From positions 1 through 60,129 of the IMG/VR virus record IMGVR_UViG_3300022752_000073: a stretch of DNA of 60,129 nucleotides; one strand, given 5' to 3'. Below the pieces are notes generated by a model. It did no database searches. It saw only the letters and a program-made list of their open reading frames with translations, and was not told the DNA's origin. A program made the translations under genes and the position numbers. This document shows, piece by piece, positions 281 to 59,766 of this stretch (positions within the stretch are counted from its first letter, which is position 1; every line of letters starts with the position of its first letter). This DNA is from a virus. Lineage: Duplodnaviria > Caudoviricetes.

Positions 281-793
281 ATGTCCAAAACTCTCTCTTA
301 CGCAAACGAAGCCGCTTTGATCGCAACTGACTTGATTGAGGCAAAAAAGTATGAGGACAAGGCAACGTCATTACGTGATGGCGTCAACAAAAAAATCGTT
401 AAGTTGCACAAAGACAAAGTAGTGATCGGACGCTACAACACGTGCGCCACTGCAACATCTTTTGTTGACACATTGGTGGCGGGTGGCTTAGCTAAAAAGA
501 CTGCTCAGAACTATTTGTCACTGTTCAAGGACGCTGTCAATACTGGTAAACCAGTATTGGACTGGGGCGGCACCAAAGGCGGCAAGTCTCGCAAAGGCGC
601 GAAGGGCACCAAGGTTCAGACAAGTAAGGCATTTGCGGATCTATTTAGACCCGCATTCAACCATGACAAGGGCAAATCATTCATGGCATTGTGCGAAGCC
701 ATCGAGAATCAGTATCAAGCCGATTCGATCAAAACCATGTACGAGGGTTTTGTAGAGTACTTCAAAGCCGAAGGTGATCGGATCGAAGACTGA
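281..793 (+). CDS. First early protein, allele A; possible helix-turn-helix DNA-binding protein
   Basis: 170 aa ORF with promoter and terminator; homologous to 59242..59766; FVDTLVAGGLAKKTAQNYLSLF resembles an HTH or SAM-like helix pair. Confidence 0.8.
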   Translation: MSKTLSYANEAALIATDLIEAKKYEDKATSLRDGVNKKIVKLHKDKVVIGRYNTCATATSFVDTLVAGGLAKKTAQNYLSLFKDAVNTGKPVLDWGGTKGGKSRKGAKGTKVQTSKAFADLFRPAFNHDKGKSFMALCEAIENQYQADSIKTMYEGFVEYFKAEGDRIED

Positions 794-803
794 TCAAACC
801 ACT

Positions 804-832
804 AAAAACCCCGCTTCGGCGGGGTTTTTTTT
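804..832 (+). terminator. Rho-independent terminator
   Basis: AAAAACCCCGC-TTCG-GCGGGGTTTTTTTT. Confidence 0.9.
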
Positions 833-873
833 CGCCCAAAATTCCCCCACACCACAACATCCAGCACCATCAT

Positions 874-893
874 GCTCTTCCACGTGGAAGAGC
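874..893. repeat. Perfect 20-bp palindrome with parS-like core
   Basis: GCTCTTCCACGTGGAAGAGC; identical at 59846-59865. Confidence 0.7.
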
Positions 894-896
894 TTT

Positions 897-1106
897 GATA
901 ACTGTTCCCTCAAAGCGGGCCGCAAAGCAAGGGTTTACCGCCTGTGGATAATCATCCTACAAAGAAGTTGTCACGTGATTTAAATTATAAAGATGTTGTC
1001 ACAAGAAATCACACTACAAGATGTTGGCAACTTAAAACCTATCTTATTTCCCACAGTGGGAAATCGTACAGAAACATACTGATAACTGTTCCCTCGACGC
1101 GGGCCG
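897..1106 (+). repeat. Pair of 26-bp direct repeats
   Basis: GATAACTGTTCCCTCAAAGCGGGCCG (897-922) and GATAACTGTTCCCTCGACGCGGGCCG (1081-1106). Confidence 0.85.
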
Positions 1107-1221
1107 TATTGACGCATAGGGAATTCCCCTGCGTAGTGCTACTTCCCACTGGTTGGACAAAACTTCCCACGGTGGGAAATGTCAACTGCGTATAAGGCAG
1201 TGCTGTCTCGCGTTTTATTCA

Positions 1222-1534
1222 ATTATTCCTAAAAATTCTGTGACCACAGAATAATATGAAACCCAGCATCCATGCGGGTTTCCGCAGGGTTTTTCCCCTA
1301 TTATTCTATTATTCTGTAAAAAATATATATGAAGAGACAATTTCAAAAAACTCCAAATTCCCCAGTTTTTGCTTAAATTCGCATGCTTGCTTACGCTCTT
1401 GGCGATGTTTTGTCTCTCTCATCTCAAAACCACAGAATAATGGAAAAATACACCCAAAACCTCTCACAACCCGCATGCCTATTGGCTTTGCTTTATTCTG
1501 TGCCCACAGAATAATACAGAAAAAAAGGAATAAT
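1222..1534. other. Candidate replication origin: symmetric iteron-like element
   Basis: Nested inverted repeats of ATTATTCT/AGAATAAT and CACAGAATAA, plus CATGCGGGTT/AACCCGCATG, around an AT-rich core. Confidence 0.55.
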
Positions 1535-1571
1535 GCGGTTTTATCACCACATAACACTACCTTGTCACAAC

Positions 1572-1600
1572 TTGACATCCAAGACTCTTTGTGGTACAGT
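1572..1600 (+). promoter_or_regulatory. Sigma70 promoter
   Basis: TTGACA-17bp-TACAGT with TG extension. Confidence 0.75.
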
Positions 1601-1606
1601 AGAGGC

Positions 1607-2210
1607 TCAACACGTGAAAACATGTTGTAGCGTGAAATATCACGAAGGGGTAAATGGTGATCGTACCTAACCCAATGGGCTTGCCCATGCTCTTTAACAA
1701 CTTATCAAACCGGATTTTCCCACTGTGGGAAATCAAACTAAACCGCCGCTCGGAACTAATGTATACGAGAAGCACATAGGCAGAACGCACGAGAAGAACA
1801 CCACGCCGTGCCATGAACCCTCCCTGTGCGAATAGGCGTACCGTAGTCAGTCGGTGCATTTTGTGGTGTAGGTCAGTAGTGTGCGTCATGTGTGGCACCG
1901 AACACGACCGATAGCAAAGCGCAAGTCAATACAGATACTGCCTAAATGTGTGGGGTGCTCTGCATGGAAACGTGCAACAACCCTAACGAAGAGTATGTAT
2001 GTGAGAGTGAGTGCTGATTTTTTATTTGATAGGCGACAAACCGCTCGCCGCACGGCATGAACCGAACACATACCAACAACTTCTAGGAACACGAACCGCA
2101 AGGGATATGCGTGAACGACAAACACTATCGCAGTTACAACAGACGGGATAACAGACGGGATAACAGATTGTCCTGTTAGCCTAGTGACAGTAGGCTAACA
2201 GATGCAATCC
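1607..2210 (+). ncRNA. Candidate large structured non-coding RNA or leader
   Basis: No credible ORF; many nested helices, GNRA loops and long-range pairings downstream of a strong promoter. Confidence 0.55.
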
Positions 2211-2233
2211 GCATCGTAATTAGGAGCTTAAAA

Positions 2234-2431
2234 ATGAGATACGTAACACTGAAAAAACTTGGCACACCCCAAAATCATGGGGCGTCTATCACCATCCCCT
2301 ACAACGGGGATGAGTTTGAATTTATTGACCCCGAATGGAGGGGTCTGGCGAGGCGCGCAGCCGCCTCCGAGGGAGGGCAAGCCCGAGAGGGCAATCGGGT
2401 TGCGATAATTGATGAACCCGCAATCAGGTAA
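2234..2431 (+). CDS. Hypothetical early protein
   Basis: ORF with AGGAG RBS. Confidence 0.6.
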   Translation: MRYVTLKKLGTPQNHGASITIPYNGDEFEFIDPEWRGLARRAAASEGGQAREGNRVAIIDEPAIR

Positions 2432-2499
2432 AAAAGCCCCTGCCTGATTTTTCTGTAACCAACTTCCCACTGTGGGAAATCAACCAAAGGAGAGTAATC

Positions 2500-2847: not shown

Positions 2848-3059
2848 CAAACAACACATGTGACAAGTGCGCCCACTACACACCTGACCCCAATGGGAGC
2901 AATGAGGGTAGTTGTTCCCTGATGGGTGACATCAACCAAAGAAGCAACCCGATTGACGGTTGCTCCGGTTGGGATGTGGAGGGCTATTGTGCGGGTGTAT
3001 TTGTTGGTCCCAAGTTTGGGTGTATTCACTGGATAAGGAGAGAGCATGCCAACAACTGA
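2844..3059 (+). CDS. Small Cys-rich hypothetical protein
   Basis: CDKCAHY...FGCIHW; ATGA overlap with upstream gene. Confidence 0.7.
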   Translation: MTNNTCDKCAHYTPDPNGSNEGSCSLMGDINQRSNPIDGCSGWDVEGYCAGVFVGPKFGCIHWIRREHANN

Positions 3060-3273
3060 CTGCCGCATATGCGGTGACGAGATCGACCCCCCAGCGAGGG
3101 CGCAATTAACAACCCTGTGCGTGGACTGCGGTGAGAAAGCCGCACGTCAGGAACGCAAGAGTTGGACGGTAGTGCAAGAGTACGGCAAGGGCGGGTACAT
3201 GTTCATCACACGTGACTCTGCACATCTGACCCTGAAACAAACAAACCAAAAGATATTGAGAGGTGATATATGA
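3046..3273 (+). CDS. C4 zinc-finger protein (DksA/TraR-like finger)
   Basis: CRICGDEI...R...LCVDC; strong RBS. Confidence 0.65.
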   Translation: MPTTDCRICGDEIDPPARAQLTTLCVDCGEKAARQERKSWTVVQEYGKGGYMFITRDSAHLTLKQTNQKILRGDI

Positions 3274-3630: not shown

Positions 3631-3728
3631 GTAAAGCCAAAAAGATATGGATAGTCACGTACACATTGACGGCAAGCATCGCCTTGCTGGTCGTGTGCCT
3701 AGATCTGTTCATGTGGAGACCAAATTGA
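3627..3728 (+). CDS. Small membrane protein (33 aa)
   Basis: MSKAKKIWIV...LDLFMWRPN, a single hydrophobic helix. Confidence 0.6.
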   Translation: MSKAKKIWIVTYTLTASIALLVVCLDLFMWRPN

Positions 3729-3752
3729 CTCTATCTGTCAATCTGTTATAAT
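3725..3752 (+). promoter_or_regulatory. Sigma70 promoter
   Basis: TTGACT-16bp-TATAAT with TG extension. Confidence 0.75.
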
Positions 3753-3833: not shown

Positions 3834-4736
3834 ATGAGTAACTTTGCAATCGACTTGGGCAACTTCAGCGTGTCCAAACTCTCAAGTTCTGCCCTAATCG
3901 TCAACTTGTCCCTGTCTGTATGGACGGGACGCAAGCTGGACAAGCGCGTATCTGAGGAGGTGGATCAACAGAACAGCACCAAGACCCGTGCTGGTAACTA
4001 CCACAAAAATCTTTTGGCAGGTTCATCCAAGCTGACCGAGATCACCAAGATCGCCAACGCTATACGTTCATGGATGTATGGGGTGACGCAACCTTGGGGC
4101 GACAACGGCGACCGTGTGCTGAACATGGCTCACTTCATGGAGTTCAAGGATCGGCTGACTGATTACGAGCAACAGTTCGGCACTGCTGTCAACAACTTTC
4201 TGAATGATTACGACACGCTAGTGGCGGCTGCCGCTTTCCAACTCGGTGACTTGTTCAACCGTGAGGACTACCCCACACGTGAGCACATTGAATCCAAGTT
4301 CGGCATGCGCTACAGCATGACCCCACTGCCTCAAGCGGGTGACTTCAGGGTGGACATCGGTGAGGAAGGACTCAAAGAGTTGCAGTCGCAGTACGAAGCT
4401 GTGTTGCAACAACGTGTTACAGGAGCAATGACCGAGGCATGGGAGCGACTGCATGACTGCCTGACTCGCATGTCAGAGCGGCTGACTGATGACATCGACA
4501 GCAACGGTGAGAGCAAGCGCAAGATATTCAGGGACTCGCTTGTCGAGAATGCCATCGAGATCTGCGGACTATTGAAGAGTTTCAACATAACCAACGACAC
4601 ACGGTTGGATGAGATGCGCAAGCAACTGGAGGATGCGATGCGCGGTGTGGATGCTGACTCACTACGAGACAGCGACAGTCTGCGTGAGCAGACAAAGCGC
4701 AAGGTGGACAACATCTTGTCTAAGTTCGATATCTAA
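3834..4736 (+). CDS. DUF3150-like helical protein
   Basis: WTGRKLD, T-x-PW-D-G-R and FNREDYP motifs; lies before an AAA/VWA pair. Confidence 0.6.
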   Translation: MSNFAIDLGNFSVSKLSSSALIVNLSLSVWTGRKLDKRVSEEVDQQNSTKTRAGNYHKNLLAGSSKLTEITKIANAIRSWMYGVTQPWGDNGDRVLNMAHFMEFKDRLTDYEQQFGTAVNNFLNDYDTLVAAAAFQLGDLFNREDYPTREHIESKFGMRYSMTPLPQAGDFRVDIGEEGLKELQSQYEAVLQQRVTGAMTEAWERLHDCLTRMSERLTDDIDSNGESKRKIFRDSLVENAIEICGLLKSFNITNDTRLDEMRKQLEDAMRGVDADSLRDSDSLREQTKRKVDNILSKFDI

Positions 4737-4762
4737 TTTTTTAACCCAAAGGAGAAAGTAAC

Positions 4763-5845
4763 ATGTACAACGCAATCACACTCAAACAATCTGCTGACCT
4801 GATCGCCGCCGTGGGTGCTCAACAAACTGTCCTAGTGCAGGGCGAGATGGGCATCGGCAAGTCTGCGATCCTCAAGATGCTCAAGTCTTACTCGCAGTTC
4901 AAGGACGCGTACTTCTGCTACGTGGACATCACCACTAAAGATGTTGGTGACTTCATTGTTCCTAAGATCAAGGACATTGACGGTAATGAGGTCTGCTCGT
5001 TCATACCGAACGAAGAGTTCGGCTTTCACTTCAAGGGCAAGAAGGTTGTCATGATGTTGGACGAGATCGGCAAAGCGCGGGGGGGTGTACTCAATGCCTC
5101 ACTGCGGCTGATGAATGAGCGTTCGCTGGGCACCAATCAACTGAGCGAGGGGTCAGTGGTGTTTGGTACAACAAACTTGGCAGTGGAGGGTATCGGTGAC
5201 AACATTCCGCCGCATGCACGTAACCGCATCACTGTGGTGCGTGTTGCCAAGCCTAATGCCAAGACATGGATCGAGGAGTTCGCCATACCTTACGGTATCA
5301 ACCCTGTGATCATTGGTACGGTGGCTGAGTACCCCGAGATGTTTGCATCGTTCGAGGACTACGAGAAGCCCGAGCAGAATACATACATCAATGACCCCCG
5401 CACTGTGCGCAGTTCGTTTGTGACACCACGTTCTATGGAGAGGGCGGCGTATGTCTACGAGAACACTCGCATACTGGGTGATGATGTGATGTGTCATGCA
5501 TTGGCAGGAACGGTGGGTGAGAAAGCAATGCACAACATCTTGACGATGGACAAGCTCGACTCTCAACTTACCCCATGGGATGAGTTGATCAAGTCCCCCG
5601 ATACCGCGACCGTGCCAACATCTGCCGCCGCCGCATGTATGTTGGTTGCCAAAGCGGTGCATCGTATCGAGAACAGCAACATCGTTGCATGGATGAAGTT
5701 CTTGAACCGCATGCCCAAGGAGGCACAAGGTTTGTTTGCACGTAGCGTCATGTCTGACAAATGCCCCAAGCGTGACGTAGCCGCACGTAACACCGAGTTC
5801 GCTGGGTGGGCGGCTTCTAACAACTTCTTGTTCGCCAAGAAGTAA
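4763..5845 (+). CDS. MoxR-like AAA+ ATPase
   Basis: Walker A GEMGIGKS, Walker B MMLDE, sensor TTN, TPRS motif. Confidence 0.9.
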   Translation: MYNAITLKQSADLIAAVGAQQTVLVQGEMGIGKSAILKMLKSYSQFKDAYFCYVDITTKDVGDFIVPKIKDIDGNEVCSFIPNEEFGFHFKGKKVVMMLDEIGKARGGVLNASLRLMNERSLGTNQLSEGSVVFGTTNLAVEGIGDNIPPHARNRITVVRVAKPNAKTWIEEFAIPYGINPVIIGTVAEYPEMFASFEDYEKPEQNTYINDPRTVRSSFVTPRSMERAAYVYENTRILGDDVMCHALAGTVGEKAMHNILTMDKLDSQLTPWDELIKSPDTATVPTSAAAACMLVAKAVHRIENSNIVAWMKFLNRMPKEAQGLFARSVMSDKCPKRDVAARNTEFAGWAASNNFLFAKK

Positions 5846-5874
5846 TTTCATACCGTATTAAAAAGGAGAGAGAT

Positions 5875-7065
5875 ATGTCATTCTTAACACAGCTCAACAC
5901 GTTGACGCCAACGCAACGTGTACAACGTGCCCATGTGGAGTTGATGGGGCACCCCGAGACGATGACCTATGCCGGTGTGCTGATGGTCGGCAAGTACACA
6001 GTATCTGACGATGTGCCCACTGCACGTACCAACGGCATCGACTGTGAGTACGGTATCGAGTTCATCAACAAGATATCTGATTCTGATTTGCGCGGTCTCA
6101 TCATGCATGAGAATCTGCACAAGGTGTATCAACACATGTTCCTGTGGCAACATCTTTACAAGGAGGATGGGCGCACTGCCAACATGGCGTGTGACTACGT
6201 GATCAACCTTGAGATAGATGCTATCGGCAAGCGTACCAACGGGTTCATCACATTACCCAAGGGTGGACTACTTGACCACAAGTATGCAGGTATGGACTCG
6301 CAGACTGTGTACAACATGTTGCGAGAAGACAATGACGATGACGGGGCCGGGCACGGTGAAGGTGAGGGTAGTGGTCTTGATGACCACGATTGGGAATCAG
6401 GGCAAAACATGTCTCAAGAAGATATTGAGCAGGTTGCCAAAGATATCAATCAAGCCATTCGTCAGGGTCAGCTCATGGCAGGTAAGCTGGGTGGTAATCA
6501 GTCACGTGAGTTGGGTTCGCTCATCGAGCCCAAGGTTGATTGGCGTGAACAACTACGTGAGTTCGTTTCATCCACTGCTGTAGGTAAGGACATTTCTACG
6601 TGGCAACGTGTTAACCGCAGGTGGTTACAACACGACATGTACATGCCGTCAACCATCACTGAGACGGTGGGGCGTATCGTGGTTGCTGTTGACACATCGG
6701 GTTCTATCGGTGAGGCTGAGTTGTCTAAGTTCCTATCCGAGGTTCAAGGCATCTGCCTCAACGCCATGCCCGAGAGAGTTGATCTTTTGTATTGGGACAC
6801 TGAGGTGGCGTCCCATGAAATCTACACACAGGAAAAACTTTCCACGTTGTCGTCATCTACCAAACCGGCGGGCGGTGGTGGCACTGACGTATCGTGTGTT
6901 TCCAAGTATCTTAAAGACAATCAGATCAAGCCCGAGTGTGTGATCGTGCTGACTGATGGCTACATCTATGGTGATTGGGGTACATGGAATGCCCCAGTGC
7001 TGTGGACTATCGTAGGTGGTAACAAAGTCGTACCCCCCATGGGTACAACTATTCACCTTGACTAA
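5875..7065 (+). CDS. Metallopeptidase + VWA domain protein (DUF2201-like)
   Basis: HENLH (HExxH), N-A-D-IN, MIDAS DTSGS, GGGGTD and LTDGY. Confidence 0.9.
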   Translation: MSFLTQLNTLTPTQRVQRAHVELMGHPETMTYAGVLMVGKYTVSDDVPTARTNGIDCEYGIEFINKISDSDLRGLIMHENLHKVYQHMFLWQHLYKEDGRTANMACDYVINLEIDAIGKRTNGFITLPKGGLLDHKYAGMDSQTVYNMLREDNDDDGAGHGEGEGSGLDDHDWESGQNMSQEDIEQVAKDINQAIRQGQLMAGKLGGNQSRELGSLIEPKVDWREQLREFVSSTAVGKDISTWQRVNRRWLQHDMYMPSTITETVGRIVVAVDTSGSIGEAELSKFLSEVQGICLNAMPERVDLLYWDTEVASHEIYTQEKLSTLSSSTKPAGGGGTDVSCVSKYLKDNQIKPECVIVLTDGYIYGDWGTWNAPVLWTIVGGNKVVPPMGTTIHLD

Positions 7066-59241: not shown

Positions 59242-59766
59242 ATGACCAAAACTCTCTCTTACACTGCCATTGCGGCAGCGGTGGCAACTTCTTTGGTATC
59301 TGCAAAGTCTTATGAGGACAAAGCAGTTTCTCTAAAAGAAGATGCAAACAAGCAAATCCTTGTTTTGCACAAAGCAAAAGTTGTTATAGGGCGCAAGGGT
59401 AAATGCTCTGTTGCAACAGCGTTTTATGATGGGCTCATTTCAGGCGGTTGGGCATCGGGCACGGCGTCAAACTACCTTTCAACCTTTCGGGAAGCAGTGG
59501 CTACCGGTAAACCGGTGCGGGAATGGAATCCCGCACAATCAAAAAACAAAGGTGCAAGCCCATCGGGGGCAAGGGCGGGTAGCACTGCTACCGGTAGCAA
59601 GCCCTTTGCAGATTTGTTGAGACCCGCATTCAACCATGACAAGGGAAAATCATTCATGGCATTGTGCGAAGCCATCGAGAATCAGTATCAAGCCGATTCG
59701 ATCAAAACCATGTACGAAGGTTTTGTAGAGTACTTTAAATCTGAAGGGGATGAAATAGAAGAGTAA
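59242..59766 (+). CDS. First early protein, allele B
   Basis: 56/95 identical to 281..793 in the N-domain (manual count), C-domain nearly identical; AGGAGG RBS. Confidence 0.8.
   Translation: MTKTLSYTAIAAAVATSLVSAKSYEDKAVSLKEDANKQILVLHKAKVVIGRKGKCSVATAFYDGLISGGWASGTASNYLSTFREAVATGKPVREWNPAQSKNKGASPSGARAGSTATGSKPFADLLRPAFNHDKGKSFMALCEAIENQYQADSIKTMYEGFVEYFKSEGDEIEE

What the first reader, a model, noticed from the sequence alone, without database searches (positions are those of the whole stretch)
1607..2210. Candidate ~600 nt large structured ncRNA next to the origin-like element
Seen: a strong sigma70 promoter (1572-1600) is followed by ~630 nt without a credible gene in an otherwise densely packed genome. 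Nested helices: CACATAGGCAG 1773/CTGCCTAAATGTG 1938, ACGCAC 1785/GTGCGT 1881, ACACCAC 1798/GTGGTGT 1863, GTATGTG 1997/CACATAC 2067, GGCGA 2032/TCGCC 2045, plus TGCATG-GAAA-CGTGCA 1961 and a CC-GCAA-GG tetraloop. Crossing pairs: GCCGTGC 1805/GCACGGC 2050, CGATAG 1909/CTATCG 2125, CGGTGC 1852/GCACCG 1895. Established: large phage-borne RNAs such as GOLLD and ROOL exist in this size range. I cannot assign a family, so it may be new.
Basis: partly seen in the sequence, partly recalled or inferred. Interest (0 to 1): 0.75.

Follow-up and report, generated by a model that had tools for sequence, protein, structure and literature searches.

The report
New large structured phage RNA
The gene-free stretch behind this phage's early promoter encodes a large, intricately folded RNA of a family found in no catalogue, carried by about half of its closest relatives, and its function is still unknown.

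Summary
The finding holds. Window 1607-2218 (+) is an untranslated, promoter-proximal stretch. It contains a conserved multi-domain structured RNA (core 1740-2139) with no Rfam 15 match.

I recovered 64 distinct copies from uncultivated phage and metagenome contigs. Pairwise identity goes down to 55%.

- **Structure.** On plain MAFFT alignments, 92-97% of cells in 82 non-redundant proposed pairs are paired, against 79-86% in shuffles. A structure derived from 10 sequences holds in 42 independent ones: 82.9% paired against 29-38% when slid.
- **Not coding, plus strand.** No ORF is conserved, and G-U pairs outnumber A-C 317 to 64.
- **Expression signals.** A sigma70-type promoter precedes 57 of 58 copies. 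An exact rrn-type boxA (GYTCTTTAANA; window 1689-1699) precedes 55 of 61.
- **Optional module.** boxA and the RNA travel together. Of 20 contigs sharing the leader, 8 have both, 10 have neither and 2 are too short.

Its long-range and crossing helices are not conserved.

Function is undetermined. My best guess is an accessory early RNA made by a Nus-modified, Rho-resistant polymerase. No transcript evidence was obtained.

The parts
1572..1600 (+). Sigma70-type early promoter (TTGACA, 17 bp, TACAGT with upstream TG).
   Evidence: Conserved in the aligned relatives, including those that lack the RNA. The motif is present upstream of 57 of 58 cores.
1608..1627 (+). 5' leader hairpin (CAACA...UGUUG). 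Nearly invariant, and shared by relatives with and without the RNA module.
   Evidence: The 25-nt leader pattern was found in 20 further viral contigs.
1631..1688 (+). Variable leader hairpins at 1631-1644, 1648-1673 and 1675-1688. The last is a boxB-like hairpin directly before boxA, present only in the window's closest relatives.
   Evidence: Fold. Presence and absence in the alignments.
1689..1699 (+). rrn-type boxA, GCTCTTTAACA, an exact match to the consensus GYTCTTTAANA.
   Evidence: Consensus taken from passages of PMC5725501. It is the only match in the window. An exact match lies 45-83 nt upstream of the core in 55 of 61 homologs. It is present in 8 of 8 leader-sharing contigs with the RNA and in 0 of 12 others.
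1717..1731 (.). Palindrome TTCCCACTGTGGGAA, 17 nt after boxA. It is one of 6 copies in the window and is either a regulator binding site or an RNA hairpin.
   Evidence: 6 matches against 0.01 expected. A perfect palindrome lies between boxA and the core in 25 of the 61 homologs examined.
1740..1838 (+). Core 5' domain. P1 is 1744-1747/1835-1838, P2 is 1749-1752/1766-1769, P3 is 1772-1776/1825-1829 with a variable tip.
   Evidence: For example, pair 1746-1836 is CG in 42 and UA in 10 distinct sequences, and pair 1751-1767 shows five pair types.
1839..1856 (+). P5 hairpin with a conserved 8-nt loop, UAGUCAGU.
   Evidence: Pair 1840-1855 is GC 20, AU 16, CG 15, UA 1, with none unpaired.
1857..1921 (+). 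P6 domain. The outer helix is 1857-1869/1911-1921 and the inner hairpin is 1879-1884/1895-1899. The tip is replaced or missing in some clades.
1922..1936 (+). Conserved linker with no supported pairing.
   Evidence: Alignment A2.
1937..2134 (+). Core 3' domain.
- Closing helices 1937-1941/2130-2134 and 1948-1951/2122-2125 are invariant.
- P10 is 1952-1957/1978-1983, with a GAAA-capped hairpin at 1961-1976.
- The long arm P11-P13 is 1988-2009/2060-2083, with its tip hairpin at 2032-2049.
- P14 is 2087-2093/2110-2116, with a GCAA-capped tip at 2096-2103.
   Evidence: In this domain 24 of 48 pairs show changes on both sides.
2138..2218 (+). 3' extension: a tandem AACAGACGGGAT x2, then hairpin 2173-2201, then hairpin 2201-2215. 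Homologs have a GAUAACA-type motif followed by a covarying hairpin at the same place.
   Evidence: repeats D20 and I25. Alignments.
2234..2431 (+). Variable 65-aa ORF after the RNA. Other members carry different ORFs here or none, so it is not part of the RNA.
   Evidence: No family match.
2464..2478 (.). Second copy of the palindrome, directly before the ribosome-binding site of the conserved 115-aa early gene (2500-2847). It marks the downstream edge of the optional module.

Best explanation
Window 1607-2218 (+) is the untranslated first part of the phage's early transcript. It carries a previously uncatalogued, multi-domain structured RNA with a core at 1740-2139 (about 400 nt here, 357-586 nt across the family).

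Proposed working:
1. Host sigma70 RNA polymerase starts at about 1607.
2. The nascent boxA (1689-1699) recruits NusB/NusE and the other Nus factors. The elongation complex then resists Rho, although it is transcribing several hundred untranslated bases. The RNA is completed, and the early genes behind it are still reached.
3. The RNA folds into a conserved architecture: a three-helix 5' domain, the P5 hairpin, the P6 arm and a large 3' domain closed by invariant helices. Helix tips are variable.
4. boxA plus the RNA forms an optional cassette inserted between the early promoter and the first conserved early gene.

It most likely acts as a folded RNA in the first minutes of infection, as a protein-binding scaffold or decoy or possibly as a catalyst. 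I rank an accessory host-takeover or counter-defence role first, at about 0.4. That last step is inference only.

What is shown by computation: conservation, covariation, the strand, the absence of coding, the promoter and boxA motifs, and the optional distribution. What is inferred: transcription, Nus binding, processing and function.
For: - **Family.** There are 64 distinct cores from 88 loci that hold both end anchors. Identity goes down to 0.55, median 0.68.
- **Covariation on MAFFT alignments not fitted to any structure.**
  - A1: 18 pairs, 97.5% of cells paired against 85.5% shuffled, score 0.400 against 0.159 (0 of 500 shuffles reach it), slid controls at most 0.076.
  - A2: 21 pairs, 92.1% against 79.1%, score 0.334 against 0.147 (0 of 500), slid at most 0.091.
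  - A3: 48 pairs, 92.8% against 82.5%, 24 pairs changed on both sides against 17.3 (0 of 500), score 0.308 against 0.139, slid at most 0.068.
- **Held-out test.** 103 pairs were predicted from 10 sequences and scored on 42 distinct sequences less than 85% identical to any of them. 82.9% of cells are paired against 29-38% when slid. 483 cells changed on both sides yet stay paired, against 82-151.
- **Strand.** 317 G-U cells against 64 A-C cells.
- **Not coding.** Window ORFs are intact in 1-9 of 47-55 distinct homologs. Insertions sit at helix tips.
- **Promoter** in 57 of 58.
- **boxA** exact in 55 of 61, at a fixed distance of 45-83 nt. It is linked to the RNA: 8 of 8 with, 0 of 12 without.
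- **boxA in other systems.** It marks rRNA and other Nus targets (PMC5725501, passages). It stands before untranslated CRISPR arrays, where blocking Rho-dependent termination is one proposed way it counters polarity (PMC7862264, passage citing Stringer et al. 2020).
- **Optional.** Present in 5 of 10 close relatives.
Against: - No transcript evidence was obtained.
- Folding energy of the single sequence is ordinary (z = -1.49). The consensus-constrained fold of the window's core is 22 kcal/mol weaker than its unconstrained fold.
- In the shuffle controls, 'pairs with a change on both sides' is not exceptional for A1 (80 of 500) or A2 (25 of 500). 'Further pair types' is not exceptional in any of the three alignments.
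- Sequences are related, and many changes are shared by clades. The number of independent events is therefore much smaller than the cell counts.
- The outer closing helices of the 3' domain never vary and so are unproven.
- In some members no terminator or ORF separates the RNA from the next gene. A purely cis-acting leader is therefore not excluded.
- The host is unknown, so binding of its Nus factors to this boxA is assumed.
- All copies come from one phage lineage in one genomic position.
Confidence: 0.7

Rival explanations
1. It is a cis-acting leader. The folded RNA stays part of the early mRNA and controls how much transcription or translation reaches the early genes. It could act as a processive antiterminator that rides with the polymerase, as an attenuator, or as a very large sensor of a ligand or protein.
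For: - It lies directly behind the early promoter and before the early genes, on the same strand.
- In L008 and L013 nothing but two hairpins and the palindrome separates it from the 115-aa gene.
- boxA, an antitermination signal, always accompanies it.
- Regulator-type palindromes sit next to it and inside it.
Against: - What follows the RNA differs between members: different small ORFs or none. No conserved expression platform is visible.
- Relatives express the same early genes from the same promoter without it.
- 400 or more conserved bases with swappable peripheral domains is far more than the known leaders of this kind, as I recall them, need.
Confidence: 0.2
2. It is a replication primer or origin-activating RNA. 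A structured transcript next to the repeat-rich, origin-like region (about 840-1560) would prime or open the origin for the phage's family-A DNA polymerase, in the manner of ColE1 RNA II.
For: - It is adjacent to a region with several repeat families.
- Its size class resembles that of RNA II (recalled).
- The phage encodes a family-A polymerase and a DUF927-domain protein.
Against: - Transcription runs away from the repeats.
- The module is absent at this site in 5 of 10 close relatives, which keep the repeat region, and in at least 10 of 20 leader-sharing contigs.
Confidence: 0.04
3. It is a DNA-level element, such as single-strand initiation hairpins, a packaging signal or an array of protein binding sites, and not an RNA.
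For: - Palindromic protein-site-like sequences lie beside it and, in 31 of 61 members, inside it.
- It is next to the origin-like region.
Against: - The helices tolerate G-T but not A-C (317 against 64 cells). That points to one strand read as RNA.
- GNRA-type loops cap conserved hairpins.
- A promoter and boxA precede it at fixed distances.
- Double-stranded binding sites would not produce compensatory changes between distant arms.
Confidence: 0.03
4. It is a cluster of small protein-coding genes, or a chance set of hairpins in a spacer.
For: - Short ORFs exist on both strands: up to 59 aa on +, and 79 and 113 aa on -.
- The folding z-score is weak.
Against: - None of the ORFs is kept in the family.
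- Indels are not multiples of three, and they sit at helix tips.
- Long invariant blocks and compensatory changes are seen across sequences only 55-70% identical.
Confidence: 0.01

Closest known systems
GOLLD and ROOL RNAs (large 'ornate' bacterial and phage RNAs)
   Same: - Several hundred nucleotides long and non-coding.
- Many helices, with conserved junctions and variable tips.
- Function unknown.
- The abstract of PMC12286853 (search listing) describes these RNAs as large ornate bacterial RNAs that form homo-oligomeric complexes.
- That they are often carried on phage or prophage DNA is my recollection.
   Different: - No match to their Rfam models or to any other.
- The consensus is different.
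- It sits at a fixed place directly behind the early promoter and is coupled to boxA.
- It was found in one lineage of uncultivated phages only.
- Oligomerisation was not tested.
rrn leader and lambdoid nut sites (boxA with a neighbouring hairpin)
   Same: - Exact boxA consensus close to the promoter.
- It is followed by long untranslated RNA, as in rRNA operons.
- A hairpin-forming palindrome lies 17 nt after boxA, as boxB follows boxA in nut sites (recalled).
   Different: - Here boxA introduces a roughly 400-nt conserved fold that is neither rRNA nor a short nut element.
- No N-like protein was identified.
- The hairpin after boxA is a perfect palindrome in only 25 of the 61 homologs examined.
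boxA-preceded CRISPR arrays
   Same: A long untranslated transcript preceded by boxA, proposed to counter polarity, possibly by blocking Rho-dependent termination (PMC7862264, passage).
   Different: - This is not a repeat-spacer array.
- It is a single folded RNA of a phage.
HK022 put RNA (cis-acting antiterminator RNA behind phage early promoters; recalled)
   Same: A folded RNA that is the first thing transcribed from a phage early promoter.
   Different: - put is, as I recall, about 70 nt with two stem-loops and needs no boxA.
- This RNA is at least five times larger, is coupled to boxA, and is optional among close relatives.
ColE1 RNA II
   Same: A structured RNA of about 550 nt next to replication sequences (recalled).
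   Different: - Transcription is oriented away from the repeats.
- It is dispensable in relatives.

Membership tests
Any Rfam 15 family (including GOLLD, ROOL, OLE, HEARO, raiA, RNase P, tmRNA, group I and II introns) | Match to the family's covariance model at its gathering score. | tested here: not met
   - 0 matches in the whole window.
- At E up to 10, nothing lies within 1711-2600.
- At E up to 1 in 20 homologous loci (50,079 bases), 7 weak matches, none overlapping the element.
Structured non-coding RNA (generic) | Base pairs kept through compensatory changes in homologs. | tested here: met
   plus the held-out test: 82.9% paired against 29-38% when slid, and 42 pairs with double changes against 20-28.
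Structured non-coding RNA (generic) | No conserved reading frame. | tested here: met
   ORFs are intact in 1-9 of 47-55 distinct homologs.
Structured non-coding RNA (generic) | It is transcribed, with defined ends. | not testable with these tools
   Only the promoter and boxA motifs speak for transcription. No RNA data were obtained (see Tried and rejected).
boxA / Nus-factor antitermination element | The sequence GYTCTTTAANA in the nascent RNA near the promoter. | tested here: met
   Window 1689-1699 and 55 of 61 homologs. The consensus is from PMC5725501. Its supplementary tables of boxA sequences could not be seen.
boxA / Nus-factor antitermination element | It binds NusB/NusE and suppresses Rho-dependent termination. 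| not testable with these tools
   The host is unknown. This is inference from the motif and from its strict linkage to the untranslated RNA.
Lambdoid nut site | boxA followed by a boxB hairpin that is recognised by a phage N-type protein. | tested here: inconclusive
   - A palindrome able to form a hairpin follows boxA by 17 nt in the window, and a perfect one lies between boxA and the core in 25 of the 61 homologs examined.
- No N-like protein was found.
- The same palindromes flank a 170-aa gene family as if they were DNA sites.
ColE1-type primer RNA | The transcript runs into the origin and is essential for replication. | tested here: not met
   It runs away from the repeat region. It is absent in half of the close relatives.

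The most novel reading that the evidence does not exclude
This is a new class of large RNA with an activity of its own, either a ribozyme or a self-assembling RNA or RNA-protein particle. The phage would have the host's rRNA-type (Nus/boxA) transcription machinery build it within the first minutes of infection, in order to disarm a host defence or reprogramme the cell. Three features would fit such an RNA: long invariant unpaired stretches, GNRA loops with a receptor-like UGUGG/CCUAA motif (the resemblance is recalled), and swappable peripheral domains that often carry the phage regulator's own palindrome.
Probability: 0.2. Interest if true: 0.92.

Novelty: new variant of a known kind. Interest (0 to 1): 0.74.

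Why it matters
Bacterial and phage RNAs larger than about 400 nt with conserved, intricate folds are few. As I recall, each class described so far has proved to be either a ribozyme or an unsolved puzzle.

This one has several features that make it tractable:
- It comes with an unusually clear expression context: an early sigma70 promoter and an exact boxA.
- It has natural presence/absence variants among near-identical phages.
- About 60 diverse sequences are available for modelling.

It is therefore directly testable by expression in a laboratory proteobacterium, by probing and by cryo-EM.

It is also, to my knowledge, an unreported case of a phage using the rRNA-type antitermination signal to make a non-coding RNA. 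My three literature searches found no description of it.

Tried and rejected
- **Rfam.** Gathering and permissive searches of the window and of 20 homologous loci found nothing in the element.
- **tRNA/tmRNA scan.** None in the window.
- **Isolated phage genomes.** blastn of 1200-2600 against 50,697 records gave no match.
- **Prokaryote species genomes.**
  - An exact 19-mer gave 0 hits.
  - A gapped 20-base pattern gave 4 hits, none with further similarity, so these are chance.
  - Two metagenome loci, L053 and L067, that matched only the 19-mer are also chance.
- **Expression.**
  - No RNA holder was listed.
  - Laying four runs (contigs only) placed pieces of relatives from one run that is probably DNA, and nothing from three metatranscriptome runs.
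  - This says nothing for or against expression, and I draw no habitat from it.
- **Antisense targets.** Exact complementarity of 11-13-mers of the core to + strand sequence elsewhere in the window is not above shuffled controls. Minus-strand transcripts and G-U pairing were not tested.
- **Tertiary pairs.** An all-against-all search for covarying columns mostly returned clade-level correlations. No pseudoknot could be called.
- **170-aa neighbour protein.**
  - No Pfam or PHROG match.
  - The Atlas gave only a weak lead, DUF3102 at 0.86.
  - The AlphaFold model has mean pLDDT 75.5 and is all-helical.
  - It has no PDB fold match with E below 3.
- **Relatives without the module.** The element was not found elsewhere on five such contigs, but those are only 15-43% complete.
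- **Covariance model.** I did not build one. All pair counts are on MAFFT alignments.
- **Closed or failed calls.**
  - One viral-contig scan did not complete.
  - One paper search had a malformed term and was re-sent.

Full report
**What the window is.**
- It is a 60,129-base virus record, estimated 95% complete.
- It is densely packed with genes.
- It encodes a family-A DNA polymerase, an SNF2-type helicase, a DUF927-domain protein and a large terminase.
- The terminase is only 52-57% identical to the four nearest isolated phages: phage 023Pt_psg01, DSL-LC04 and Pelagibacter phages HTVC027P and HTVC023P.
- The stretch 794-2233 has no credible gene. Its first half (about 840-1560) is full of repeats. 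The finding concerns the second half.

**The observation.**
- The promoter-like site at 1572-1600 is real as a motif: TTGACA, 17 bp, TACAGT with TG.
- On its own the scan is unremarkable, with 3 sites in 5 kb against 5.9 in shuffles.
- Folding energy is unremarkable as well. The + strand gives z = -1.49 and the - strand -0.08.
- Rfam gives nothing, at gathering scores for the whole window or at E up to 10 for 800-2600. There the only hits are at the terminator near 800-864, at 965-1033, and a 19-bit hit at 1627-1710.
- No tRNA or tmRNA was found.

**Relatives.**
- The conserved 115-aa early gene (2500-2847) brought in 13 related viral loci.
- blastn showed that window 1640-2144 is kept at 73-85% identity in 5 of the 10 close ones. 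It is cleanly missing in the other 5, where the promoter and a short leader run straight into the palindrome and the 115-aa gene.
- The first alignment already showed compensatory changes and insertions confined to hairpin tips.
- Conserved blocks used as exact patterns found 7, 21 and 28 viral loci and 72 metagenome loci.
- Of 107 loci examined for the 3' anchor, 88 also held a 5' anchor, giving 64 distinct cores.
- Core lengths are 357-586 nt, median 423. Pairwise identity goes down to 0.55, median 0.68.
- L045 is a still more divergent member.
- No copy was found in isolated phage genomes or in species-representative prokaryote genomes.
- In all loci with enough flank, the element sits in the same neighbourhood, downstream of a 170-aa gene family. 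It therefore belongs to one phage lineage.

**Structure: alignments and counts.**
- I split the core into three overlapping pieces and aligned them with MAFFT only: A1 with 58 sequences, A2 with 63 and A3 with 63. For A1 I left out 5 of 63 sequences that carry very long insertions, and one core that lacked an anchor was dropped throughout.
- The helices are given in window coordinates under 'parts'. The coordinates printed are 2 too low.
- A1: 18 pairs, 97.5% of cells paired against 85.5% in shuffles, covariation 0.400 against 0.159 (0 of 500).
- A2: 21 pairs, 92.1% against 79.1%, covariation 0.334 against 0.147 (0 of 500).
- A3: 48 pairs, 92.8% against 82.5%, with 24 pairs changed on both sides against 17.3 (0 of 500), covariation 0.308 against 0.139.
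- Sliding the 3' partners by 1-3 columns drops pairing to 23-56% and the score to 0.015-0.091.

**Structure: weaker points and the held-out test.**
- 'Pairs with a change on both sides' is not exceptional in A1 (80 of 500) or A2 (25 of 500). 'Further pair types' is not exceptional anywhere.
- Many changes are shared by clades.
- The two closing helices of the 3' domain never vary.
- Because the structures were derived from these same sequences, I ran a held-out test.
  - The RNAalifold structure of 10 sequences (103 pairs) was scored on 42 distinct sequences less than 85% identical to any of the ten.
  - 82.9% of cells are paired against 29-38% when slid.
  - 483 doubly changed yet paired cells, against 82-151.
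  - 42 pairs with such changes, against 20-28.
- Individual pairs are striking:
  - 1840-1855 is GC 20, AU 16, CG 15, UA 1 with none unpaired.
  - 2002-2068 is CG 21, UA 17, GC 15.
  - 1746-1836 is CG 42, UA 10.

- The local hairpins it named coincide with supported helices.
- Its long-range and crossing helices are not kept. They show 37-77% paired with no compensation.
- CGATAG/CTATCG is possible but invariant, and it conflicts with supported pairs.
- The conserved fold is also not the window's own minimum-energy fold: -87.0 kcal/mol constrained against -108.9 free, for 1740-2140.

**RNA, plus strand, not protein.**
- G-U cells outnumber A-C cells 317 to 64 in the proposed pairs.
- Conserved hairpins often end in GNRA-type loops.
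- The six longest ORFs overlapping the core are intact in only 1-9 of 47-55 distinct homologous segments.

**Expression context.**
- A TTGAC[AT]-N16-18-TANNNT motif lies within 260 nt upstream of 57 of 58 cores, ending 90-148 nt before the core.
- Window 1689-1699 reads GCTCTTTAACA. This is an exact match to the boxA consensus GYTCTTTAANA that Baniulyte et al. derived for gamma-proteobacteria (PMC5725501, passages read).
- It is the only match in the window (0.36 expected, so its conservation is what counts).
- An exact match lies 45-83 nt upstream of the core in 55 of 61 homologs with enough flank.
- Among 20 further viral contigs sharing the 25-nt leader behind the promoter, 8 have the core within 1,100 nt, 10 do not and 2 are too short to tell. 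In one of those two, the 115-aa gene starts 56 nt after the leader.
- boxA is present in 8 of 8 with the core and 0 of 12 others.
- boxA therefore belongs to the RNA module, not to the early operon as such.
- boxA is the NusB/NusE site of rRNA operons. It also stands before untranslated CRISPR arrays, where blocking Rho-dependent termination is one proposed way it counters polarity (PMC7862264, passage).
- The simplest reading follows. A long untranslated insert between promoter and early genes would invite Rho-dependent termination, and boxA prevents it.

**The palindromes.**
- TTCCCACNGTGGGAA occurs 6 times in the window against 0.01 expected. All copies lie in the control region, including 1717 (17 nt after boxA) and 2464 (before the 115-aa gene).
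- Relatives use other half-sites: CATAC, CATAT, CGTAC, CCTAC.
- In 31 of 61 cores, one or two perfect palindromes sit inside the RNA, at helix tips.
- In 31 of 33 loci with palindromes both inside and outside the core, the type is the same.
- Whether these act as DNA sites or as RNA hairpins is open.
- Candidate binder: a 170-aa protein family (window 281-793, and a paralog at 59242-59766).
  - 28 of 30 gene copies have a perfect palindrome 110-156 nt upstream of the start.
  - Most also have palindromes within about 400 nt on the other side of the gene.
  - In the window, each paralog is flanked mainly by its own type.
  - The protein has no family or fold match.

**What it does.**
- Nothing here shows a function.
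- The module is optional, it is the first thing transcribed, and variable small ORFs follow it. Together these suggest an accessory early role, such as host takeover or counter-defence.
- Long invariant unpaired stretches and exchangeable peripheral domains suggest a demanding three-dimensional fold of the ROOL/GOLLD or ribozyme kind.
- A cis-acting leader remains a serious rival.
- A primer-RNA or DNA-level role is unlikely, for the reasons given under Rival explanations.

**Novelty.**
- There is no Rfam match.
- Three full-text searches found no description. The last two returned only listings, which I read as titles and abstracts.
The boxA tables of PMC5725501 were not seen.

Noticed in passing
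window 135, 1048, 1164, 1717, 2464, 60096; also 3791, 59094, 59979; also 1236, 1496: There are three families of perfect palindromes of the form TTC-N4-(N1-2)-N4-GAA: CCCAC x6, CATAT x3 and CTGTG x2. All lie in control regions. Several sit between a promoter and the next start codon, for example promoter 3725-3752, palindrome 3792 and gene 3834.
   Followed up: partly
window 281-793 and 59242-59766: Two paralogous genes of 170 and 174 aa with no known family. Each has mainly its own palindrome type about 146 nt upstream and 217-374 nt downstream. In relatives with a single copy, the palindrome type appears to follow the protein's nearer paralog. This makes the family a candidate sequence-specific regulator with swappable specificity.
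   Followed up: partly
window 840-1560: A repeat-rich, origin-like region. It holds a 27-nt direct repeat x2 (896, 1080), a 12-nt repeat x3 at 28-bp spacing (962-1029), ATTCTGTG-N-CACAGAATAATA palindromes (1235, 1495) and an A+T-rich stretch. It is conserved in relatives with and without the RNA.
   Followed up: no
window 805-830: A strong intrinsic-terminator-like hairpin with a T run directly after the 170-aa gene. It accounts for all the weak sRNA-tail hits in the permissive Rfam search.
   Followed up: no
window 2422-2455: A hairpin (AATCAGG...CCTGATT) followed by TTTTCT after the 65-aa ORF. It looks like a weak terminator at the end of the optional module. The terminator scan did not flag it because the loop is too long.
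   Followed up: no
loci L025, L026, L029, L033, L041, L042, L044 and others (5' domain); L025, L056-L058, L069, L073, L093, L114, L117 (middle domain): A recurring inserted sub-motif appears at two different helix tips in different members: GGAUGGAUUGCGAAGCCCAC in one place and GGAUAGGCGUGCGUCAACCCC in the other. It looks like a transplantable tertiary module.
   Followed up: no
L045 (IMG/VR contig of 64 kb), about 620 nt upstream of its 3' anchor: A divergent, shorter member of the RNA family. It has its own promoter and a boxA variant, GCTCCTTAACA. This shows that the family reaches beyond what the exact-pattern searches could collect.
   Followed up: partly
window 3834-7065: The early operon carries a DUF3150 protein, a MoxR-like AAA+ protein (weak Sigma54_activat hit) and a DUF2201 metallopeptidase/VWA protein in a row.
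   Followed up: no
window 3046-3273: A 75-aa early protein with a DksA-like zinc-finger match (phrog_54, E = 9.5e-5). It may act on the host RNA polymerase.
   Followed up: no
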